From: an uncultured Anaerolineae bacterium
GTDB taxonomy: Bacteria > Chloroflexota > Anaerolineae > VGOG01
Direction: 5' to 3'
NCBI GenBank assembly: GCA_964510205.1
Contig: CAZEBW010000004.1
Location: forward strand, 3,638-67,637
Length of the DNA: 64,000 nucleotides
The translations under genes and the position numbers were made by a program. Shown one piece after another: positions 1,762 through 58,623 of this stretch (within the stretch, counting starts at the first letter, position 1; every line of letters begins with the position of its first letter). The notes beneath the pieces were generated by a model. The model worked only from the letters and a program-made list of their open reading frames with translations, was not told where the DNA came from and did not search any database.

Positions 1762-1830
1762 CAGGGAATCAGGGAATCGGGGAATCGGGGAGCTGATTCT
1801 GATCCCTGATCACTGATTCCTGATTCCCTG
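1762..1830. repeat. Inverted arrays of 7-8 nt tandem repeats (AGGGAATC x3.5 followed by the reverse-complement GATTCCCT array) in a divergent intergenic region
   Basis: cagggaatcagggaatcggggaatcgggga / tgattcctgattccctg read directly; could form a long hairpin. Confidence 0.85.
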
Positions 1831-1851
1831 GTCACTTGAGATCGCCAGGAG

Positions 1852-3930
1852 TTGAGGAAGATGGATGTGGAAAAGCGCATTGAGGAGCTGCGTAAAGAGA
1901 TACGCTATCACAATTACCGCTATTATGTGCTGGACTCCCCCGTCATCAGCGACGCCGAGTACGACCGGCTGATGCGGGAGCTGCGGGAGCTGGAGGCGGC
2001 CCATCCTGAGCTGATTACCCCGCACTCGCCAACCCAAAGGGTGGGCGCCGAGCCGCTGGACAGGTTCGAGAAGGTGCGCCATCCCAAACCGATGCTCAGC
2101 CTGAGCGACGCCTTTGAAGAGGAGGAGCTGTGGGCCTGGCTGGAGCGCATCAGCAAGCTGTTGCCGGAAGGGGTGACTGCAAAGGATTTGCAGTACGTGG
2201 TGGAGCCCAAGATTGACGGCCTGACGGTGGTGCTCACTTATCAGGACGGACGCTACGTTCAGGGCGCGACGCGGGGGAACGGGATCGAGGGGGAGAACGT
2301 CACCGCTAATCTCAAGACCATCAAGGGCGTCCCTCTGCGCATCCCCGTCTCGCCCAACGGCCCGCCGCCGGCCCGTCTGGTGGTGCGGGGCGAGGCTTAC
2401 ATGCCCATTGATCAGTTTGAAGCGTTCAACCGCCGCCAGGCGGAGTTGGACGAGAAGACCTTCGCCAATCCCCGCAACGCCGCCGCCGGCTCGGTGCGCC
2501 AGCTCGACCCCCGCATCACCGCCTCCCGTCCCCTGGCCATCTTCACCTACGCCGTGGTGGATAGCGAGGGCGTTGCGGTCGCCACCCAGTGGGATTCCCT
2601 CCAGTATCTCAAGCACATGGGCTTTCCCATTAACCTCGATAGCCGCTTGCTCCCGGACTTCGAGCAGGTGATAGCCTACTGCCACGAGTGGATGAAGAAG
2701 CGGGATACCCTCAACTACGAAGTGGACGGGGTGGTGGTCAAGATCAACTCCCTGGAAATCCAGGAACACCTGGGGGCCGTAGGCAACGCGCCGCGCGGAG
2801 CGGTGGCCTACAAGTTCCCTGGCCGCGAGGCGACGACCGAGCTGCTGGACATCGGCATCAACGTGGGCCGCACCGGCAGTCTGAATCCCTTCGCCATCCT
2901 GGAGCCGGTGGAAGTGGGGGGCGTGGTCGTCAAGCAGGCGTCCCTACATAACGAAGAAGACATCCACCGCAAGGGCATCCGCATCGGCGACACGGTCACC
3001 GTGCGGCGGGCCGGCGAGGTCATCCCCTACGTGGTGGGGCCTATCGTGGACCTGCGCAGCGGGGAGGAGCGGGTGTTTCACATGCCCGACCGCTGCCCGG
3101 CCTGCGGCGAGCCGGTGGTGAAGCCGGAGGGCGAGGTGGCCCACTACTGCGTCAACGCCGCTTGCCCCGCTCAGTTGGTGCGGCGGGTGGAGCACTTCGC
3201 CTCGCGGGGCGCCATGGACATTGAAGGCTTCGGCTCTCGTCTGGCGCAGCAGTTCGTGGAAGCGGGGCTGCTCAAAGACGTAGGCGATTTCTACTATCTG
3301 CGGCGGGAGGACATCCTGCCTCTGGAAGGCTTCGCCGAGAAGAGCACCGACAATCTGTTGGCCGCTGTCGAGGCTTCCAAGCAGCGGCCGCTGTGGCGGC
3401 TCATCACCGCCCTGGGCATCCGCTTCGTGGGGAGCACCGTGGCCCAGCTCCTGACCGAGCACTATGCCTCCATTGACGAACTGATGGCGGCCACGCAGGA
3501 GGAACTGGAGGCCATCGAGGGGCTGGGGCCGCACACGGCGGGCAGCATCGTGGAGTGGTTTGGGCGGGAGCGGCACCGCGCACTGATCGAGAAGCTGCGG
3601 CGGGCTGGGGTCAGGCCCGTCCTGAGCCGAGGCGAAGGAATGGAGGAGAAGCGAGAAGTCGCAGAGGAGATGCCCCAGACCCTGGCGGGTTTGACCTTCG
3701 TCCTCACCGGCTCTTTGCCTTCCATGAGCCGCGACCAGGCCACGGCGCTGATCGAGCGGCACGGCGGTCGGGTCACGGGCTCCGTTTCTGGCAGAACCGA
3801 TTATCTGCTGGTGGGAGAGGCCCCCGGCGGCGCCAAATATGACAAGGCCCGCGAGTTGGGCGTGGCCTTGATTGGGGAGGCGGAGCTGATGGAGATTGTT
3901 GCAGGCGGGACTACAACGGATTTGGAATAG
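1852..3930 (+). CDS. ligA: NAD-dependent DNA ligase LigA
   Basis: 692 aa; KIDG adenylation motif ([11 protein letters not shown]), Cys4 zinc finger (CPACGE...CVNAACPAQ), HhH and C-terminal BRCT. Confidence 0.95.
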
Positions 3931-3964
3931 AACGGATTGGAGGAAGGAAATCCGTTCTTTTCTT
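3931..3964 (+). terminator. Rho-independent terminator after ligA
   Basis: aacggatt-ggaggaaggaa-aatccgtt hairpin followed by cttttctt. Confidence 0.5.
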
Positions 3965-3995
3965 AATCTGTTGTAGTGTTGTTGCGAGGAATGCC

Positions 3996-57305: not shown

Positions 57306-57546
57306 GCTTCGGTCCTGCTTTCGAGAACACGGATGTACAGGGTAGTCCCCCTCTTGGGTGTTGTTGATTGGCCCTCGGTCTGAAGACCTCGGCTGATACA
57401 GGAAATCCGTTGAAACGGATTCAGAACAAATGCGATTTATCGCATTTTATGTCTCAGCCGGGCAATTCATTGCTCGGCAAGGCCAGCAACACTCTACGGG
57501 GGGACTACCGAGTACAGGATTTACGGATTTTGCCTCAAGCTGGGTA

Positions 57547-57586
57547 GCTTCAGTAGATCGCGGTCGCTCCCGTTGAATTGCCAAAC
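57547..57586 (-). other. Conserved ~40-nt motif, copy 2 (see 36865-36905), followed by two perfect hairpins
   Basis: gcttcagtagatcgcggtcgctcccgttgaattgccaaacc; nearby aatccgttgaaacggatt and aaatgcgatttatcgcattt hairpins at ~57400-57460. Confidence 0.4.
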
Positions 57587-57603
57587 CGACTGAGCTTGAT
57601 CCG

Positions 57604-58623
57604 TTAATCCTGCGAATCCGCCGTTATCCTCCCTAACACTTGCCAATACGACTTAATCCGCGCTGCTCGCAGCGGTCGCTTGTGCCCCACCAGCCACTTG
57701 AGGGCTTCTACGATCAGTTGATAGAAATAGGTGACTAGGATAAACAACCGCAACGCCTCTGCTTGCCACGGGCCGTGATGCTTGCGGAAATAGCGGATTT
57801 TGCTGCGCTGGAATTGGATGTGCTGGAAGGATTTGACCTGCTCGCTCGATTGCCCCCCGTGGTGGACCACTTTGGCCGTGGACAGGTAGATTATCTTCCA
57901 GCCTCGCTCCTGGGCTCGACGGCACCAATCCAATTCCTCAGAGTACATGAAGAAGCCTTCGTCTAGTGGCCCCACCTGTTCGATGGCCTCGCGGCGGGCC
58001 AGCAAGCAGGCTCCAGTGACCCAGTCCACCTCTTGCACCTCGTCGTCCGGGCGGTCTGCGATGTAGTAGCGTCCGGCGACGCGGTTGTGGGGGAACCACT
58101 GCTGCATGATCGTGCTTTCCAGGAAAGCGGTGGTCAGGGTCGGGAAGCGGCGGCGCGAGGACTGGATGCTGCCGTCGGGGTTCAGGAGCTGCGGCCCCAG
58201 CGCGCCCACTTGAGGATGCTCGTCCATGTACTCGACCATCGTCGCCAGCGCGTCGCCGACCACTTCCGTGTCCGGGTTCAGCAGCAGGACGTATCGCCCC
58301 CGGCTGACGGCGATGCCCTGGTTGTTGCCCACGGTGAAGCCCACGTTCTCGCGGTTGGCGATGAGCCGCACCTGGGGGAACTCCTTTTCAACCATCGCTG
58401 CGCTGCCATCTGAGGAAGCGTTGTCTACTACGATGACCTCGAGCCGGAAGTTGGAAGGTGGAAGGTGGAAGATGGAATCGAGACAACGCTTCAGGAGGTC
58501 TCGTACATTCCAGTTCACGATCACAATGGACAGATCCATTCTAACCTTCGACCTCCAATCTCCAACCTCTAACCTCCAACCTCCATTTGCTAAGACGGCG
58601 GCTTCTAGGCCGCCGCGTCTCAA
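57604..58623 (-). CDS. Glycosyltransferase family 2 (true start probably MDLSIVIVNWN near 58539)
   Basis: IVNWNVRDLL...VVDNASSDGS; the annotated N-terminal extension is encoded by GGTTGGA-type heptamers. Confidence 0.75.
   Translation of the reverse strand: MRRGGLEAAVLANGGWRLEVGDWRSKVRMDLSIVIVNWNVRDLLKRCLDSIFHLPPSNFRLEVIVVDNASSDGSAAMVEKEFPQVRLIANRENVGFTVGNNQGIAVSRGRYVLLLNPDTEVVGDALATMVEYMDEHPQVGALGPQLLNPDGSIQSSRRRFPTLTTAFLESTIMQQWFPHNRVAGRYYIADRPDDEVQEVDWVTGACLLARREAIEQVGPLDEGFFMYSEELDWCRRAQERGWKIIYLSTAKVVHHGGQSSEQVKSFQHIQFQRSKIRYFRKHHGPWQAEALRLFILVTYFYQLIVEALKWLVGHKRPLRAARIKSYWQVLGRITADSQD
58440..58600. repeat. Inverted GGTTGGA/GGAAGGT heptamer arrays flanking the GT2 start codon (one array in frame inside the CDS)
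   Basis: gaagttggaaggtggaaggtggaagatgg (58443-58472) vs cctccaatctccaacctctaacctccaacctcc (58548-58590). Confidence 0.8.

What the first reader, a model, noticed from the sequence alone, without database searches (positions are those of the whole stretch)
1762..58600. Genome-wide STRR-like heptamer/octamer tandem repeat arrays, frequently as inverted pairs at gene boundaries
At least a dozen arrays of 7-8 nt units occur in this window: AGGGAATC (1762-1830), TTCACGN (27923-27975; inverted copy 29534-29590; 38560-38580), RTTCGTRR (34816-34890; 38449-38518), GTCCYAC (40921-41035; 43300-43380), CAATACG (40268-40347), GGTATTG (44361-44400), GCGRTTT (45225-45290), GGTTGTA (41775-41815; 45885-45915; 38405-38430), GGTTGGA/GGAAGGT (46420-46465; 56575-56600; 58440-58600), CCCTAGT (57140-57180). 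Many are arranged as a direct array followed by its reverse complement, forming potential long hairpins around start or stop codons; one TTCACG pair brackets folC. This resembles the short tandemly repeated repetitive (STRR) heptamers of heterocystous cyanobacteria, which is unusual in a high-GC Chloroflexota-like genome.
Basis: seen in the sequence. Interest (0 to 1): 0.8.

Follow-up and report, generated by a model that had tools for sequence, protein, structure and literature searches.

The report
Heptamer repeat arrays in an Anaerolineae genome
This stretch of an uncultured Anaerolineae (Chloroflexota) genome really is peppered with short tandem arrays of 7-8 base units, the same kind of repeat already known from cyanobacteria, Xanthomonas and Chloroflexus; the less ordinary points are that about half sit inside genes and appear to be read as protein, and that relatives carry arrays at the same gene positions.

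Summary
TRF finds 20 period-7/8 arrays of at least 3 copies, against 0.18 expected in dinucleotide shuffles. Seven inverted pairs fold into hairpins of -34 to -58 kcal/mol.

The source is an uncultured Anaerolineae bacterium (58.6% GC). Its closest relatives carry such arrays, and more distant Anaerolineae do so only patchily.

The interpretation needs correcting on these points:
- About half the arrays are not at gene boundaries. They lie in frame inside coding sequences (folC, GH99, GT2, GT4 and four GT-C/PMT_2 paralogues), where they encode 7-residue-periodic peptides in tails and variable segments.
- Orthologues and paralogues carry arrays at the same sites, often with different units. Length changes come in 21-nt (7-residue) steps.
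- Two strains 99.3% identical differ at only one of about 10 arrays, and in frame, so these do not behave like hypermutable phase-variation switches.
- "Genome-wide" is unproven: 19 of the 20 arrays lie between 27.9 and 58.6 kb.

Best reading: a lineage-specific expansion of heptanucleotide simple-sequence repeats (STRR/LSSR class). Slippage and template switching or gene conversion would generate and homogenise them, and they survive where they are tolerated. Hairpins at cistron starts may affect translation, which is inferred only.

Verdict: a new member of a known kind, of moderate interest.

The parts
1761..1836 (.). Inverted pair: (TCAGGGAA)x3.9 followed by its complement-like (CTGATYC)x4.4. 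It lies between a divergent DUF5656 gene (902-1711, minus strand) and ligA (ATG at 1861), and ends about 10 nt before the ligA AGGAG.
   Evidence: TRF; sequence; RNA fold -45.6 kcal/mol, z -4.5; Pfam.
27919..27973 (+). (ACGTTTC)x7.6 in the divergent spacer between the CHU_C-domain gene (26441-27730, minus strand) and folC (28124, plus strand).
   Evidence: TRF. Absent at the orthologous position in L001, which has an (AAATCCA)x4.7 array further on in the same spacer.
28857..28895 (+). Heptamer array with a 14-nt superperiod (ACGAGTACCGAGGG x2.4) inside the folC CDS, residues about 245-258.
   Evidence: TRF; translation. L001 has (CGAATCA)x5.3 at 3839-3875, which by the colinear BLAST block (L001 3063-4444 = window 28079-29473) lies at about the same folC position.
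29535..29589 (+). (ACGTSAA)x7.9 with a 21-nt superperiod, read in frame as the basic N-terminal tail (RRKTSSVKRETSNVERQAS) that precedes a long hydrophobic stretch (likely membrane anchor) of the GH99-family protein. The conserved start is ATG 29506.
   Evidence: TRF; translation. In the alignment with L001, the start ATGAAAGCTATACT is conserved, the frame is kept, the length differs by 21 nt, and L001 has an extra AACTTCC array.
34818..34880 (+). (GATTCGTA)x7.9 with a 24-nt superperiod. Intergenic, ending 10 nt upstream of the enolase GGAGGAGG and 26 nt upstream of the ATG at 34906.
   Evidence: TRF; sequence. Other lineages have different arrays just upstream of enolase: L015 9853-9979 (an inverted pair), L059 3377-3400, L005 9684-9713.
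38452..38517 (.). (TTCGTAGA)x8.2, 15 nt upstream of the Wzy_C gene start (38437, minus strand). Shares the unit variants TAGA/TAAA/TGGG with the array at 34818.
   Evidence: TRF. At the same place L005 has (CAACGAGT)x4, L003 has CTTCGTGG x3, and L081 has none. Folds with 38558-38579 at -44.9 kcal/mol, z -6.2.
38558..38579 (-). (GTTTCAC)x3.1. Encodes the last residues (TVKRET*) of ORF 38561-38800, the detached C-terminal domain of gene A.
   Evidence: TRF; translation.
40268..40350 (-). Inverted pair (CAATACG x4, then GCGTATT x6.7) inside the CDS of PMT_2 paralogue A ('site 1'). It encodes VRNTQYEIRNTQYATR-R-LFVLRIAYYVL.
   Evidence: TRF; translation; 37-bp stem, -46 kcal/mol, z -5.1. L005 has (TTTCGAT)x5.4 at about the orthologous position by colinear BLAST.
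40951..41023 (-). Inverted pair (GTCCYAC x4.6, then GACYTAG x4.6) spanning the stop of paralogue B (40987-40989) and the start region of paralogue A.
   Evidence: TRF; translation; fold -38.9 kcal/mol, z -4.4.
41780..41815 (-). (GGTTGTA)x5.1 in the paralogue B CDS ('site 2'). It encodes YNLQPTTYNLQP in place of the short segment seen in array-free homologues (for example DLETESVK).
   Evidence: TRF.
43313..43354 (-). GTCC-core heptamers (about 6 units) that contain the ATG of paralogue B (43332). With 43355-43372 they form a hairpin.
   Evidence: Sequence; TRF (43328-43344); fold -34.2 kcal/mol, z -4.0.
44369..44402 (-). (TGGGTAT)x4.9, 96% matches, in the paralogue C CDS at site 2. It encodes YAIPNTQYPIPS.
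   Evidence: TRF. The peptide family PISNTQYPISN is present in 25 of 50 homologues.
45234..45289 (-). (GCGRTTT)x8 with a 21-nt superperiod in the paralogue C CDS at site 1. It encodes KITNRKPQIANRKPQTANR.
   Evidence: TRF.
45885..45915 (-). (AGGTTGT)x4.4, encoding the N-terminus of paralogue C (LKSRTYNLQP), just after the ATGA stop/start overlap with paralogue D.
   Evidence: TRF. P0001, the database protein identical to my ORF for paralogue C, includes it. N-terminal variants among homologues differ by inserted heptapeptide blocks.
46411..46446 (-). (GTTGGAR-type) array in the paralogue D CDS, residues about 929-941 (PSNLQSPTSDFQP).
   Evidence: TRF. L083 has arrays in D at residues 952-980.
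56582..56599 (-). (GTTGGAG)x2.6 in the GT4/GT1 glycosyltransferase CDS. A weak instance.
   Evidence: TRF.
57120..57181 (-). Inverted pair (AAGTGAC x3.4, then TCCCTAG x3.7) in the GT4/GT1 CDS, residues 41-62.
   Evidence: TRF; fold -40 kcal/mol, z -4.0. L083 has (CCCGAAA)x5.7 at residues 47-60 of its orthologue.
58446..58477 (-). (GGAAGGT)x4.6. On the coding strand it reads ACCTTCC, inside the GT2 CDS (DSIFHLPPSNFR), and is complementary to the array at 58543-58585.
   Evidence: TRF. L083 has (TCCAACT)x4.6 at the same place.
58543..58585 (-). (AACCTCC)x6.1. On the mRNA strand this is six Shine-Dalgarno-like GGAGGTT-type units immediately upstream of the GT2 ATG (about 58538) and immediately after a GC-rich hairpin that looks like a terminator.
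   Evidence: TRF; sequence. The predicted fold pairs it with 58446-58477, -57.8 kcal/mol, z -3.6. L083 has a TGGAGRT-type array in the same place.

Best explanation
These are heptanucleotide (some octanucleotide) simple-sequence-repeat arrays, expanded in one lineage. They are the same kind of feature as cyanobacterial STRRs and the 5-11-nt 'long SSRs' described in other large bacterial genomes.

Origin and maintenance (inferred):
- Arrays arise and are kept periodic by replication slippage.
- Direct-plus-inverted pairs, and the reappearance of one unit at several nearby loci, arise by template switching or ectopic gene conversion between arrays.

Where they persist (shown):
- They are found in spacers, at cistron junctions, and in frame within tails and variable segments of proteins.
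- Inside genes they appear to be translated. Because 7 is not a multiple of 3, the unit is read in all three frames and gives a 7-residue-periodic peptide. Only 3-unit (21-nt) length steps keep the frame, and such steps are what is seen.
- C/A-rich units on the coding strand give polar peptides such as PISNTQY, LQPPTSN and LKSQISN. The complementary G/T-rich arm gives hydrophobic peptides such as WVLDIRYWIL.
- A site keeps an array across orthologues and paralogues while the unit drifts or is replaced (concerted evolution).

Consequence (inferred, not shown): inverted pairs at cistron starts fold into stable mRNA hairpins and probably affect translation initiation or coupling. An example is the SD-like GGAGGTT array upstream of GT2, which pairs with an ACCTTCC array 60 nt into the gene. 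This may be a by-product rather than the reason the arrays exist.
For: The arrays are real and specific to period 7:
- 20 arrays against 0.18 in shuffles; 17 of period 7.
- Across 80 related loci, period 7 is the commonest period (58 arrays), against 26 of period 6 and 14 each of periods 8 and 9.

Lineage distribution:
- Arrays are present in relatives with at least 87% enolase identity (L001, L003-L006), though the shortest such locus (L002, 2.8 kb) has none.
- They are absent from L007-L014 and patchy elsewhere (L015, L033, L034, L046, L059, L071).
- 53 of 80 loci have none.

Signs of block slippage:
- Superperiods of 14, 21 and 24 nt score above the basic period.

In-frame translation:
- Arrays lie within intact ORFs of folC, GH99, GT2, GT4 and the PMT_2 paralogues.
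- The database protein P0001, identical to my ORF for paralogue C, contains three of them.
- All 17 non-overlapping arrays classified in L083 fall within independently called genes.
- The GH99 tail differs between the window and L001 by exactly 21 nt, with the frame kept.
- At site 2 the variable segment is 9, 16 or 23 residues long (3, 25 and 1 homologues). Array-free homologues have 8.
- Two members of a 97-100% identity cluster differ by exactly 7 residues there.

Same site, different unit:
- Upstream of Wzy: TTCGTAGA here, CAACGAGT in L005, none in L081.
- Site 1: GCGRTTT in paralogue C, ACGCAAT/ATTGCGT in A, none in B.
- Site 2: TACCCAA in C, TACAACC in B, CCAATAC/CCAATAA in L083.

Periodicity is maintained at the DNA level:
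- Paralogues B and C are only 51-55% identical in protein and 0.55-0.61 identical at third codon positions, yet both keep DNA-periodic arrays at site 2.
- Synonymous third positions follow the heptamer in 112 of 121 codons, against 43 expected from codon usage. This test is partly circular, because the arrays were found by their periodicity.

Units spread between arrays:
- 3 identical-unit pairs against 0.10 expected.
- Between strains 99.3% identical, one site-2 array is replaced by a different unit type together with a 21-nt length change.

Composition:
- Array GC is 47.7% against 58.6% for the window, and the arrays use rare A/T-ending codons, so they are not shaped by codon usage.

Hairpins:
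- Seven fold at -34 to -58 kcal/mol.
- Five of the seven sit at or next to start codons.

Precedents:
- PMC4692102 and PMC4679880 (both summarising Mrazek 2007), PMC6749651 and PMC3488679.
Against: - Slippage and template switching are inferred from sequence patterns. No mutation process was observed.
- Between two strains 99.3% identical, only 1 of about 10 arrays changed length. The arrays are therefore fairly stable, and it is unclear whether slippage alone is frequent enough to keep them homogenised.
- Site 2 has the same 16-residue length in 25 homologues. This could instead mean selection on the peptide, or on a nucleic-acid structure.
- Arrays recur at the same sites across genomes and upstream of enolase in several lineages. 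That could reflect function rather than tolerance.
- The GT2 arrangement of an upstream array and a complementary array inside the gene is conserved between the window and L083.
- A genome-wide distribution could not be examined.
Confidence: 0.62

Rival explanations
1. The arrays, especially the inverted pairs, are selected cis-regulatory RNA elements. Hairpins at 5' UTRs and cistron junctions would sequester Shine-Dalgarno or start sites, enforce translational coupling, act as thermometers or standby sites, or stabilise mRNA. Heptamer periodicity would simply be how such hairpins are built in this lineage.
For: - Five of seven hairpins overlap or adjoin start codons: ligA, Wzy, the B-stop/A-start junction, the B start and the GT2 start.
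- The GT2 leader consists of six SD-like GGAGGTT-type units directly upstream of the ATG. They are predicted to pair with ACCTTCC units about 60 nt downstream.
- The same two-array arrangement exists in L083 despite roughly 77% protein identity.
- Arrays recur upstream of enolase in four lineages.
- MacGregor proposed translational regulation for TAACTGA repeats placed just upstream of start codons (PMC4679880).
Against: - Complementarity is not conserved. At the B/A junction L005 has two non-complementary arrays, TGGAGGT then TTTGAGA.
- At site 1 the left arm is replaced (L083 paralogue C: AATCGCA against ATTGGGT) or the right arm is missing (window paralogue C) in many homologues.
- Identical units occur in both orientations relative to the neighbouring gene. 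TTCGTAGA is sense upstream of enolase and antisense upstream of Wzy.
- Thirty-eight per cent of arrays are deep inside coding sequences.
- Orthologous spacers can lack the array altogether (L001, L081).
- No Rfam family matches.
Confidence: 0.2
2. The arrays are contingency loci. Gain or loss of a single 7-nt unit would shift the frame or alter promoter or UTR spacing, reversibly switching cell-surface glycosylation genes on and off (phase variation).
For: - The densest cluster (38-59 kb) is an envelope glycosylation locus: Wzy_C, four PMT_2/GT-C genes, GT4 and GT2. This is a typical target of SSR-mediated phase variation.
- A 7-nt unit is not a multiple of 3, so one-unit changes inside a gene would frameshift it.
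- Simple-sequence repeats are a recognised mediator of phase variation of surface structures in Haemophilus influenzae (PMC2651432).
Against: - No array was found interrupting a reading frame in any genome examined (window; L083).
- Length differences are multiples of 21 nt.
- Between strains 99.3% identical, 9 of about 10 arrays are identical in length and the one change is in frame.
- The arrays are short (3-8 units) and imperfect (65-96% matches).
- Arrays also sit in or next to housekeeping genes: folC, enolase and ligA.
- The disruptions seen in gene A are point nonsense mutations, not array frameshifts.
Confidence: 0.06
3. The arrays are remnants or cargo of small mobile elements (MITE, REP or SDR-like) that insert at many sites. 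The repeated unit families would then reflect transposition rather than local slippage.
For: - The same units recur at separate loci more than chance allows.
- Subirana and Messeguer interpreted the dispersed Chloroflexus heptamer satellites as probably transposed (PMC6749651).
- A 24-nt sequence identical at all copies (GCCCCGCCCTGAGCGGGACGAAGG) occurs at several sites in relatives and differs in presence between near-identical strains.
Against: - The arrays have no conserved termini, flanks or fixed length.
- Copy numbers vary continuously from 3 to 8, and unit variants are mixed within arrays.
- Arrays at orthologous sites differ in unit rather than in presence or absence of a fixed element.
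- No transposase or other mobility gene turned up among the roughly 40 window ORFs scanned against Pfam.
Confidence: 0.07
4. The arrays are binding-site arrays, or non-B DNA or RNA structures such as G-quadruplexes, recognised by a specific factor.
For: - The first array (GGGG/GGG tracts spaced by AATC, 1757-1793) resembles the G4-forming GGGAATC heptamer repeats of Xanthomonas (PMC4692102).
- Several unit families are related by 1-2 changes: GGAGGTT, GGAGATT, GGATATT, GGGTATT, GCGTATT.
Against: - There are 56 distinct canonical heptamers among 97 arrays, too diverse for one sequence-specific factor.
- Most units lack G-tracts.
- The G-rich array is immediately followed by its complement, which favours a hairpin.
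Confidence: 0.04

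Closest known systems
[quoted passage not shown]
   Same: - Tandem 7-nt units and several unit families per genome, with dispersed copies.
- Copy-number variation between strains.
- A direct array followed by its complement, folding into a hairpin (PMC3488679 for P6b).
- A predominantly filamentous host lineage (own knowledge).
   Different: - The phylum differs (Chloroflexota, class Anaerolineae).
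- The canonical units CCCCAGT, TTGGTCA and CAACAGT (recalled from Mazel et al. 1990, not checked here) are absent from the window. TTGGTCA arrays do occur in relatives L083 and L084.
- About half the arrays here lie in frame within conserved enzymes, at sites shared by orthologues and paralogues.
Long simple-sequence repeats with 5-11-nt units (Mrazek, Guo and Shah 2007), in which heptanucleotides are the most abundant class
   Same: - Heptamer units predominate.
- The arrays occur in a non-pathogen of moderately high GC.
- Polymerase slippage is the proposed origin (as summarised in PMC4679880 and PMC4692102).
   Different: - That survey reported that repeats inside genes are mainly those with unit lengths that are multiples of three. 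Here 7-nt units are common inside genes, with frame kept through 3-unit steps.
- As far as the papers read here show, Anaerolineae were not covered.
(GATAGRA)n satellites of Chloroflexus aurantiacus (Subirana and Messeguer 2019, PMC6749651)
   Same: - Same phylum.
- Heptamer-derived arrays scattered through the genome.
   Different: - Chloroflexus has one dominant unit, whereas there are many unit families here.
- GATAGRA tandems are absent from the window and from all fetched loci.
- That paper described no inverted pairs and no translated arrays.
GGGNATC G-quadruplex-forming heptamer repeats of Xanthomonas and Nostoc (Rehm et al. 2015, PMC4692102)
   Same: - Heptameric, dispersed, concentrated within about 50 bp of ORF ends, and transcribed.
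- The window's first array (AGGGAATC/GGGGAATC) is nearly the same motif.
   Different: [quoted passage not shown]
- Here most units are not G-rich, many are coding, and the G-rich array sits between divergent genes next to its own complement.
TAACTGA direct repeats of marine Beggiatoaceae, cyanobacteria and Bacteroidetes (MacGregor 2015, PMC4679880)
   Same: - Heptamer direct repeats just upstream of start codons.
- Some overlap ORF ends or are translated (LSVISYQ peptides).
- A patchy phylogenetic distribution.
   Different: - There is a single unit there, against dozens here.
- Inverted repeats are rare there (1 of 170) and frequent here.
- TAACTGA tandems are absent here.
SSR contingency loci, in which simple-sequence repeats drive phase variation of surface structures (for example Haemophilus influenzae, PMC2651432)
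   Same: - Non-triplet repeat units in or near surface-glycan genes.
   Different: - No out-of-frame or single-unit length variants were seen.
- The arrays are imperfect and largely stable between near-identical strains.

Membership tests
Heptanucleotide long SSRs (LSSR, 5-11-nt unit class) | Head-to-tail tandem copies of a 5-11-nt unit, longer than expected by chance. | tested here: met
   20 arrays of 3-8 copies, against 0.18 expected in 40 dinucleotide shuffles.
Heptanucleotide long SSRs (LSSR, 5-11-nt unit class) | Many arrays per genome, with period 7 over-represented relative to neighbouring periods. | tested here: met
   The window has 17 arrays of period 7, 3 of period 8 and 2 of period 6. 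The related loci have 58 of period 7, against 26 of period 6 and 14 each of periods 8 and 9. Only about 64 kb of the source genome was available.
Heptanucleotide long SSRs (LSSR, 5-11-nt unit class) | Length polymorphism by whole units between related genomes (a slippage signature). | tested here: met
   A 21-nt difference in the GH99 tail between the window and L001. Steps of 7 residues at site 2 among homologues and within a 97-100% identity cluster. A 21-nt indel between strains L084 and L085. Only in-frame steps were seen inside genes.
Cyanobacterial STRR family | Tandem heptamer units dispersed at many loci. | tested here: met
Cyanobacterial STRR family | Canonical unit sequences STRR1-3 (CCCCAGT, TTGGTCA, CAACAGT; recalled from Mazel et al. 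1990). | tested here: not met
   No tandem of two or more copies of any of the three in the window. TTGGTCA x2-4 occurs only in relatives L083 and L084.
Cyanobacterial STRR family | Host is a heterocystous cyanobacterium. | tested here: not met
   The best matches are Anaerolineae/Chloroflexota MAGs, with enolase identity up to 91%.
SSR contingency (phase-variation) locus | Repeat-number changes that switch a gene on or off (out-of-frame variants), and high variability between close strains. | tested here: not met
   No array was found interrupting a reading frame. Nine of about 10 arrays are identical between strains 99.3% identical, and the one change is 21 nt. Within-population heterogeneity could not be tested.
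MITE/REP/SDR-type small mobile element | Defined length and termini, shared flanks or target-site duplications, near-identical copies. | tested here: not met
   The arrays vary continuously in copy number and unit mix and have no common flanks. By contrast, a 24-nt sequence in relatives does have identical copies.
Known structured RNA family (Rfam) | A match to a curated covariance model at its gathering score. | tested here: not met
   No matches at gathering threshold in the 64-kb window. No tRNA or tmRNA genes.
G-quadruplex-forming GGGNATC repeats (Xanthomonas/Nostoc type) | At least four G3 tracts spaced by a heptamer period; G4 formation in vitro. | not testable with these tools
   1757-1793 has five G3-4 tracts with AATC(A) spacers. 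It is adjacent to its complement and is predicted to form a hairpin. No other array in the window is of this type.

The most novel reading that the evidence does not exclude
The arrays are not passive microsatellites. On this reading they are an actively maintained, lineage-wide system of two parts. First, heptamer-periodic modules would be kept at fixed positions: cistron junctions, 5' leaders, and particular segments of GT-C glycosyltransferases, GT2, GT4 and folC. They would be kept because their RNA hairpins, or the peptides they encode, tune translation, for example by SD sequestration, coupling, or pausing during membrane insertion. Second, a dedicated copying process (template switching or gene conversion between arrays, or an unknown enzyme) would replace units while preserving periodicity and position.

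Three results leave this open:
- Orthologues and paralogues share array sites but differ in unit.
- Twenty-five homologues share the same 16-residue length at site 2.
- The paired arrays around the GT2 start are conserved between the window and L083.
Probability: 0.1. Interest if true: 0.7.

Novelty: new member of a known kind. Interest (0 to 1): 0.4.

Why it matters
**New occurrence.** Full-text searches found no paper that mentions heptanucleotide repeats together with Anaerolineae. Earlier reports cover cyanobacteria, Xanthomonas, Burkholderia, Beggiatoaceae and Chloroflexus. This adds a clade of uncultured Anaerolineae.

**Evolutionary material.** Non-triplet repeats sit in frame in conserved enzymes and seem tolerated there. 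The sites are shared by orthologues and paralogues while the units turn over. That makes this a usable natural system for studying concerted evolution of microsatellites under a reading-frame constraint, and how low-complexity inserts enter proteins.

**Practical consequences:**
- The arrays lie at the ends of several MAG contigs (L050, L059, L071), so they may contribute to assembly breaks.
- They confuse start-codon calling. Annotated N-termini differ within clusters of 90% identity.
- They could serve as strain markers.

It does not reveal a new kind of molecular system.

Tried and rejected
**Searches that led nowhere**
- I could not retrieve the rest of the source contig or its gene calls. 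Exact look-ups of enolase, a PGM-family protein, a methyltransferase and P0001 all returned 'not on record'. Array density outside the window, and so the 'genome-wide' claim, could not be measured.
- The metagenome scan with the Wzy protein, meant to find strain-level variants of this locus, returned only two loci (89% and 58% identity). Neither has arrays upstream of Wzy.
- The Rfam and tRNA scans found nothing.
- No exact tandems of the published units (STRR1-3, TAACTGA, GGGAATC, GATAGRA) occur in the window.
- No donor copy was found within the fetched loci for the replaced site-2 array of L085, so gene conversion from a neighbouring paralogue is not shown.

**Ideas considered and rejected**
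- An assembly or sequencing artefact. The arrays are shorter than reads, lie in intact ORFs, and recur at the same sites in independently assembled genomes.
- Arrays inside genes being skipped rather than translated. Every one is stop-free and keeps the frame in every genome examined.
- The TTCACG arrays flanking folC forming a composite unit. The arrangement is not conserved in L001.

**Caveats on two analyses**
- The synonymous-site periodicity test is partly circular, and I treat it as supporting evidence only.
- Comparing the window with L083 cannot separate ancient inheritance from homogenisation, because third positions are still 66-75% identical. The paralogue comparison is the stronger argument.

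Full report

Yes. Reading the sequence confirms them.

After merging overlapping rows there are 20 period-7/8 arrays of at least three copies, covering 784 bases. Forty dinucleotide-preserving shuffles of the window give a mean of 0.175 and a maximum of 2. The effect is specific to period 7: 17 arrays, against 3 of period 8, 2 of period 6 and none of periods 4, 5 or 9-12.

- 38405-38430 is only about two imperfect copies. It lies in the N-terminal coding sequence of the Wzy gene, which is conserved in L081.
- 56582-56599 has only 2.6 copies.

The arrays are AT-shifted, at 47.7% GC against 58.6% for the window. They are unevenly placed. Nineteen of the 20 lie between 27.9 and 58.6 kb. There are none in 1.9-27.9 kb or beyond 58.8 kb.

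**2. Inverted pairs**

Seven direct-plus-inverted arrangements are predicted to fold into long hairpins as RNA.

| Coordinates | MFE (kcal/mol) | z-score |
|---|---|---|
| 1755-1842 | -45.6 | -4.5 |
| 38448-38582 | -44.9 | -6.2 |
| 40262-40356 | -46.0 | -5.1 |
| 40945-41030 | -38.9 | -4.4 |
| 43300-43385 | -34.2 | -4.0 |
| 57112-57188 | -40.0 | -4.0 |
| 58441-58590 | -57.8 | -3.6 |

No shuffle out of 200 folds as well in any case. This part of the observation also holds.

**3. Whose genome is it, and who else has the arrays?**

The enolase at 34906-36216 is at most 91% identical to any species representative. Its nearest relatives are uncultured Anaerolineae/Chloroflexota MAGs. One window protein (paralogue C, see section 4) is 100% identical to an NCBI protein on a 92,483-nt contig (P0001).

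I ran TRF on the 80 enolase loci:
- Period-7/8 arrays occur in relatives with at least 87% enolase identity: L001, L003, L004, L005 and L006. L005 has 14 in 21 kb. The shortest such locus, L002 (2.8 kb), has none.
- L007-L014 (76-83% identity) have none.
- A patchy set of more distant Anaerolineae has them: L015, L033, L034, L046, L059 and L071.
- 53 of the 80 loci have none.

L083, a syntenic locus from a genome with about 77% protein identity, has 19 arrays in 22 kb. The feature is therefore real, heritable and lineage-restricted. It is not peculiar to one locus of one assembly.

**4. Where the arrays sit: the main correction**

Pfam annotation gives this gene order around the arrays:
- A DUF5656 gene and ligA, divergent.
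- A CHU_C-domain gene and folC, divergent.
- A GH99-family gene, lon, a gene of unknown function, and enolase.
- A Wzy_C gene.
- Four tandem PMT_2/GT-C glycosyltransferase paralogues, which I call A (38882-40990), B (40987-43332), C (43584-45926) and D (45923-49234).
- Further on, GT4/GT1, GT2 and a polyprenyl synthase.

Translating the ORFs with array-coded residues marked shows that many arrays lie in frame inside these genes:
- The GH99 N-terminal tail.
- folC, residues about 245-258.
- GT4, residues 41-62.
- GT2, a short segment soon after the N-terminus.
- The N-termini of the PMT_2 paralogues, plus two internal sites. 'Site 1' lies between two hydrophobic stretches at about residues 213-241. 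'Site 2' is the segment between the conserved LLGY and PGD motifs, at about residues 505-520.

A crude gene call over the 24 array-bearing loci classifies 109 arrays as follows, with a coding fraction of 0.87:

| Class | Share |
|---|---|
| CDS-internal | 38% |
| Within the first 30 codons | 16% |
| Spanning a CDS boundary | 15% |
| Intergenic | 30% |

Spacers and boundaries are about 3.5-fold enriched, but the arrays are far from confined to them. In L083 the genes were called independently of me, and all 17 non-overlapping arrays classified there fall within those genes.

**5. Arrays inside genes appear to be translated, and they change in 21-nt steps**

*The GH99 tail.* The alignment of the window with L001 keeps the ATG and the first codons, then runs through arrays of partly different composition. 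It re-joins the hydrophobic segment in the same frame, with a length difference of exactly 21 nt.

*Fifty homologues of paralogue C (57-84% identity).* The same three regions carry 7-residue-periodic peptides:
- N-termini such as MNTNLKSQISNLKSKTSNLQPP. Variants differ by inserted heptapeptide blocks.
- Site 1, typically KISNIQYPISNRHWLLDIRYWILG. The DNA available for L083 shows a CA-rich array followed by a TG-rich (ATTGGGT/TGGATAT-type) array at this site, and the peptide fits the same reading. In many orthologues, then, site 1 looks like an inverted pair inside the gene.
- Site 2, typically GYDLPISNTQYPISNTLKPGD. More distant homologues have the short GYDLETESVKPGD.

*Segment lengths at site 2*:

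| Length (residues) | Homologues | Note |
|---|---|---|
| 8 | 10 | array-free |
| 9 | 3 | |
| 16 | 25 | |
| 23 | 1 | |

The array-bearing forms differ by steps of seven residues, which is three heptamers.

*Within a 97-100% identity cluster.* Two members differ from the rest by a 7-residue deletion at site 2, together with a change of unit type.

*Why skipping is unlikely.* Every array inside a gene is stop-free and frame-preserving in every genome examined. Translation is therefore the simple reading, and skipping would not explain the pattern.

*Peptide character.* The coding strand usually carries the C/A-rich version of a unit, which gives polar peptides. The complementary G/T-rich arm encodes hydrophobic residues.

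**6. Same site, different unit**

Arrays recur at the same positions, but their units differ.

| Site | Units found |
|---|---|
| Upstream of Wzy | window (TTCGTAGA)x8; L005 (CAACGAGT)x4; L003 a short CTTCGTGG run plus an unrelated insertion; L081 none |
| folC upstream spacer | window array absent from L001, which has (AAATCCA)x4.7 elsewhere in the spacer |
| Site 1 | C GCGRTTT; A the ACGCAAT/ATTGCGT inverted pair; B none |
| Site 2 | C TACCCAA; B TACAACC; L083 CCAATAC (B) and CCAATAA (C) |
| GT4 | window GGGACTA-type inverted pair; L083 (CCCGAAA)x5.7 |
| Just upstream of enolase | window, L005, L015 (inverted pair) and L059, all with different units |

**7. Periodicity is maintained at the DNA level**

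Paralogues B and C are only 51-55% identical in protein. At conserved residues their third codon positions are 0.55-0.61 identical. Yet in each genome both still have cleanly periodic DNA arrays at site 2, built from rare A/T-ending codons such as ATA, AAT, CAA and CCA.

Within the window's CDS arrays, synonymous third positions follow the heptamer consensus in 112 of 121 codons, against 43 expected from codon usage. This test is partly circular, because the arrays were found by their periodicity.

Selection on the protein alone would not preserve this. Either ongoing homogenisation or selection at the nucleotide level is needed.

Superperiods of 14, 21 and 24 nt score above the basic period in several arrays, as expected if blocks of units are duplicated.

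**8. Units spread between arrays**

In the window, three array pairs share an identical unit up to rotation and strand, against 0.10 expected. Nine pairs are within one mismatch, against 2.4 expected (P about 0.002). Some of these pairs are the adjacent arms of one inverted pair.

Further observations:
- The two octamer arrays at 34818 and 38452 share the same unit variants (TAGA, TAAA, TGGG). They lie in opposite orientation relative to their neighbouring genes.
- Across all loci there are 56 canonical heptamers among 97 arrays, and several are shared between genomes.
- Many are neighbours by 1-2 mutations: GGAGGTT, GGAGATT, GGATATT, GGGTATT and GCGTATT.

**9. How unstable are the arrays?**

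L084 and L085 come from two strains that are 99.3% identical over 20 kb and carry about 10 arrays. Only one array differs, at site 2 of one paralogue. The difference is a 21-nt length change plus replacement of a CCAATAY-type array by an NNCAACC-type array.

The other three indels lie outside arrays:
- One of 1 nt.
- One copy of a 24-nt dispersed sequence.
- A 213-nt segment in a gene fragment.

The arrays are therefore hotter than average sequence, though with a single event that is only suggestive. They are nothing like contingency loci. No length variant that breaks the frame was seen anywhere.

**10. Possible regulatory side**

Five of the seven hairpins sit at translation starts. The clearest case is GT2. 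After a GC-rich hairpin that looks like a terminator, the mRNA reads GGAGGUU GGAGGUU AGAGGUU GGAGAUU GGAGGUC GAAGGUU AGA AUG. Sixty nucleotides into the gene, an ACCUUCC array is predicted to pair with this leader. L083 has the same two-array arrangement.

This fits Shine-Dalgarno sequestration or a standby site, but it is inference only. Against a general structural function:
- Arm complementarity is lost in several orthologues. Examples are the L005 B/A junction, site 1 of L083 paralogue C, and site 1 of window paralogue C, which lacks the second arm.
- Identical units occur in either orientation relative to genes.
- Orthologous spacers can lack arrays.
- No Rfam family matches.

**11. Comparison with what is known**

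- **Heptameric SSRs in general.** They were reported as over-represented in many bacterial genomes, especially large high-GC ones, with polymerase slippage proposed as the cause. This is Mrazek et al. 2007, as summarised in PMC4679880 and PMC4692102.
- **Cyanobacteria.** Tandem heptanucleotides were reported in Calothrix PCC 7601 (cited in PMC4692102). In the Nostoc tRNA-Leu intron, degenerate heptanucleotide repeats pair into the P6b hairpin and vary in copy number (PMC3488679).
- **Xanthomonas and Nostoc.** They carry dispersed GGGNATC repeats near ORF ends (PMC4692102).
- **Beggiatoaceae.** They carry TAACTGA repeats upstream of start codons, and some are translated (PMC4679880).
- **Chloroflexus aurantiacus.** It has 22 dispersed (GATAGRA)n satellites (PMC6749651).
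- **Anaerolineae.** No paper in the searchable library mentions heptanucleotide repeats together with Anaerolineae.

None of the published units occurs as a tandem in the window. TTGGTCA arrays do occur in L083 and L084.

The finding fits the known class of heptanucleotide SSRs. It is not a member of the cyanobacterial STRR families by unit sequence or by host.

**12. Verdict**

The STRR analogy is reasonable as 'works like', not as membership.

The most informative new points are these:
- Frequent in-frame, apparently translated arrays in conserved enzymes.
- Array sites shared across orthologues and paralogues while the units turn over.
- Length changes in 21-nt steps.

The mechanism (slippage plus template switching or conversion, with tolerance filtering) is inferred. 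A selected role for some start-site hairpins remains possible.

This is a new member of a known kind, of moderate interest.

Noticed in passing
window 38817-38891: A 24-nt unit (GCCGCGACGTCATATGATGAAGCG) repeated 3.1 times, absent from the orthologous position in L003 and L005. It is in frame with PMT_2 paralogue A, but its first copy (in the gene's reading direction) carries TAA where the other copies have TCA. Gene A is therefore split from its conserved C-terminal domain (ORF 38561-38800). The A orthologue in L084 is also broken, by a TGG-to-TAG change and what looks like a frameshift by eye, so this paralogue seems to be decaying in more than one lineage.
   Followed up: partly
L084 11922, 14348 and a minus-strand copy; L085 11838 and a minus-strand copy; L003 4059: An identical 24-nt sequence, GCCCCGCCCTGAGCGGGACGAAGG, occurs at several sites in relatives, inside genes and in frame (8 residues, for example PALSGTKG). 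One copy is present in L084 and absent from L085, two strains 99.3% identical. It behaves like a very small dispersed insertion element, which recalls the cyanobacterial 'small dispersed repeats' (own recollection, not checked). It is not found in the window.
   Followed up: partly
window 27750-27875: A GC-rich insertion of about 125 nt with long palindromic arms (GCCCCGTCCTCGGGGCG ... CGCCCCCGGGGACGGGGGC), in the spacer upstream of folC. It is absent from L001. It may be a REP- or MITE-like element, or a terminator-like hairpin.
   Followed up: no
window 11841-25569: An array-free segment of lower GC (50-55%, against about 60% elsewhere). It encodes a TPR protein, an SPFH/Band 7 protein, two receiver-CHAT proteins, an HATPase_c protein, a receiver-Schlafen/AlbA_2 protein, a 1245-residue multi-GAF histidine kinase, and a 446-residue protein with only the class II alanyl-tRNA synthetase catalytic domain. 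It may be a horizontally acquired signalling or conflict-system island.
   Followed up: no
window 54310-54635: A 126-nt repeat, 2.6 copies at 83% identity, inside the LVIVD-repeat beta-propeller gene (53849-56140). It is an ordinary coding domain repeat, unrelated to the heptamer arrays.
   Followed up: no
L050 1-136; L059 7579-7600; L071 9-29; L019 218-294: Heptamer arrays lie at or very near contig ends in several MAGs. L050 starts with 19 copies of AGTAGGR. This suggests that long arrays break short-read assemblies, so their abundance in MAGs may be under-estimated.
   Followed up: no
P0062, P0057, P0082, P0093 (homologues of window 43584-45926): Some homologues have N-terminal extensions containing PFDYAQDRL- or PFDHAHDKP-type peptides. 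These look to me like translated small GC-rich repeat elements, and may show a second class of repeat entering these genes.
   Followed up: no
window 62557-63292: A HEPN-domain ORF (62557-62964) overlaps the end of a small upstream ORF (62951-63292). This may be a HEPN/MNT-type toxin-antitoxin pair. Only the HEPN domain was confirmed.
   Followed up: no
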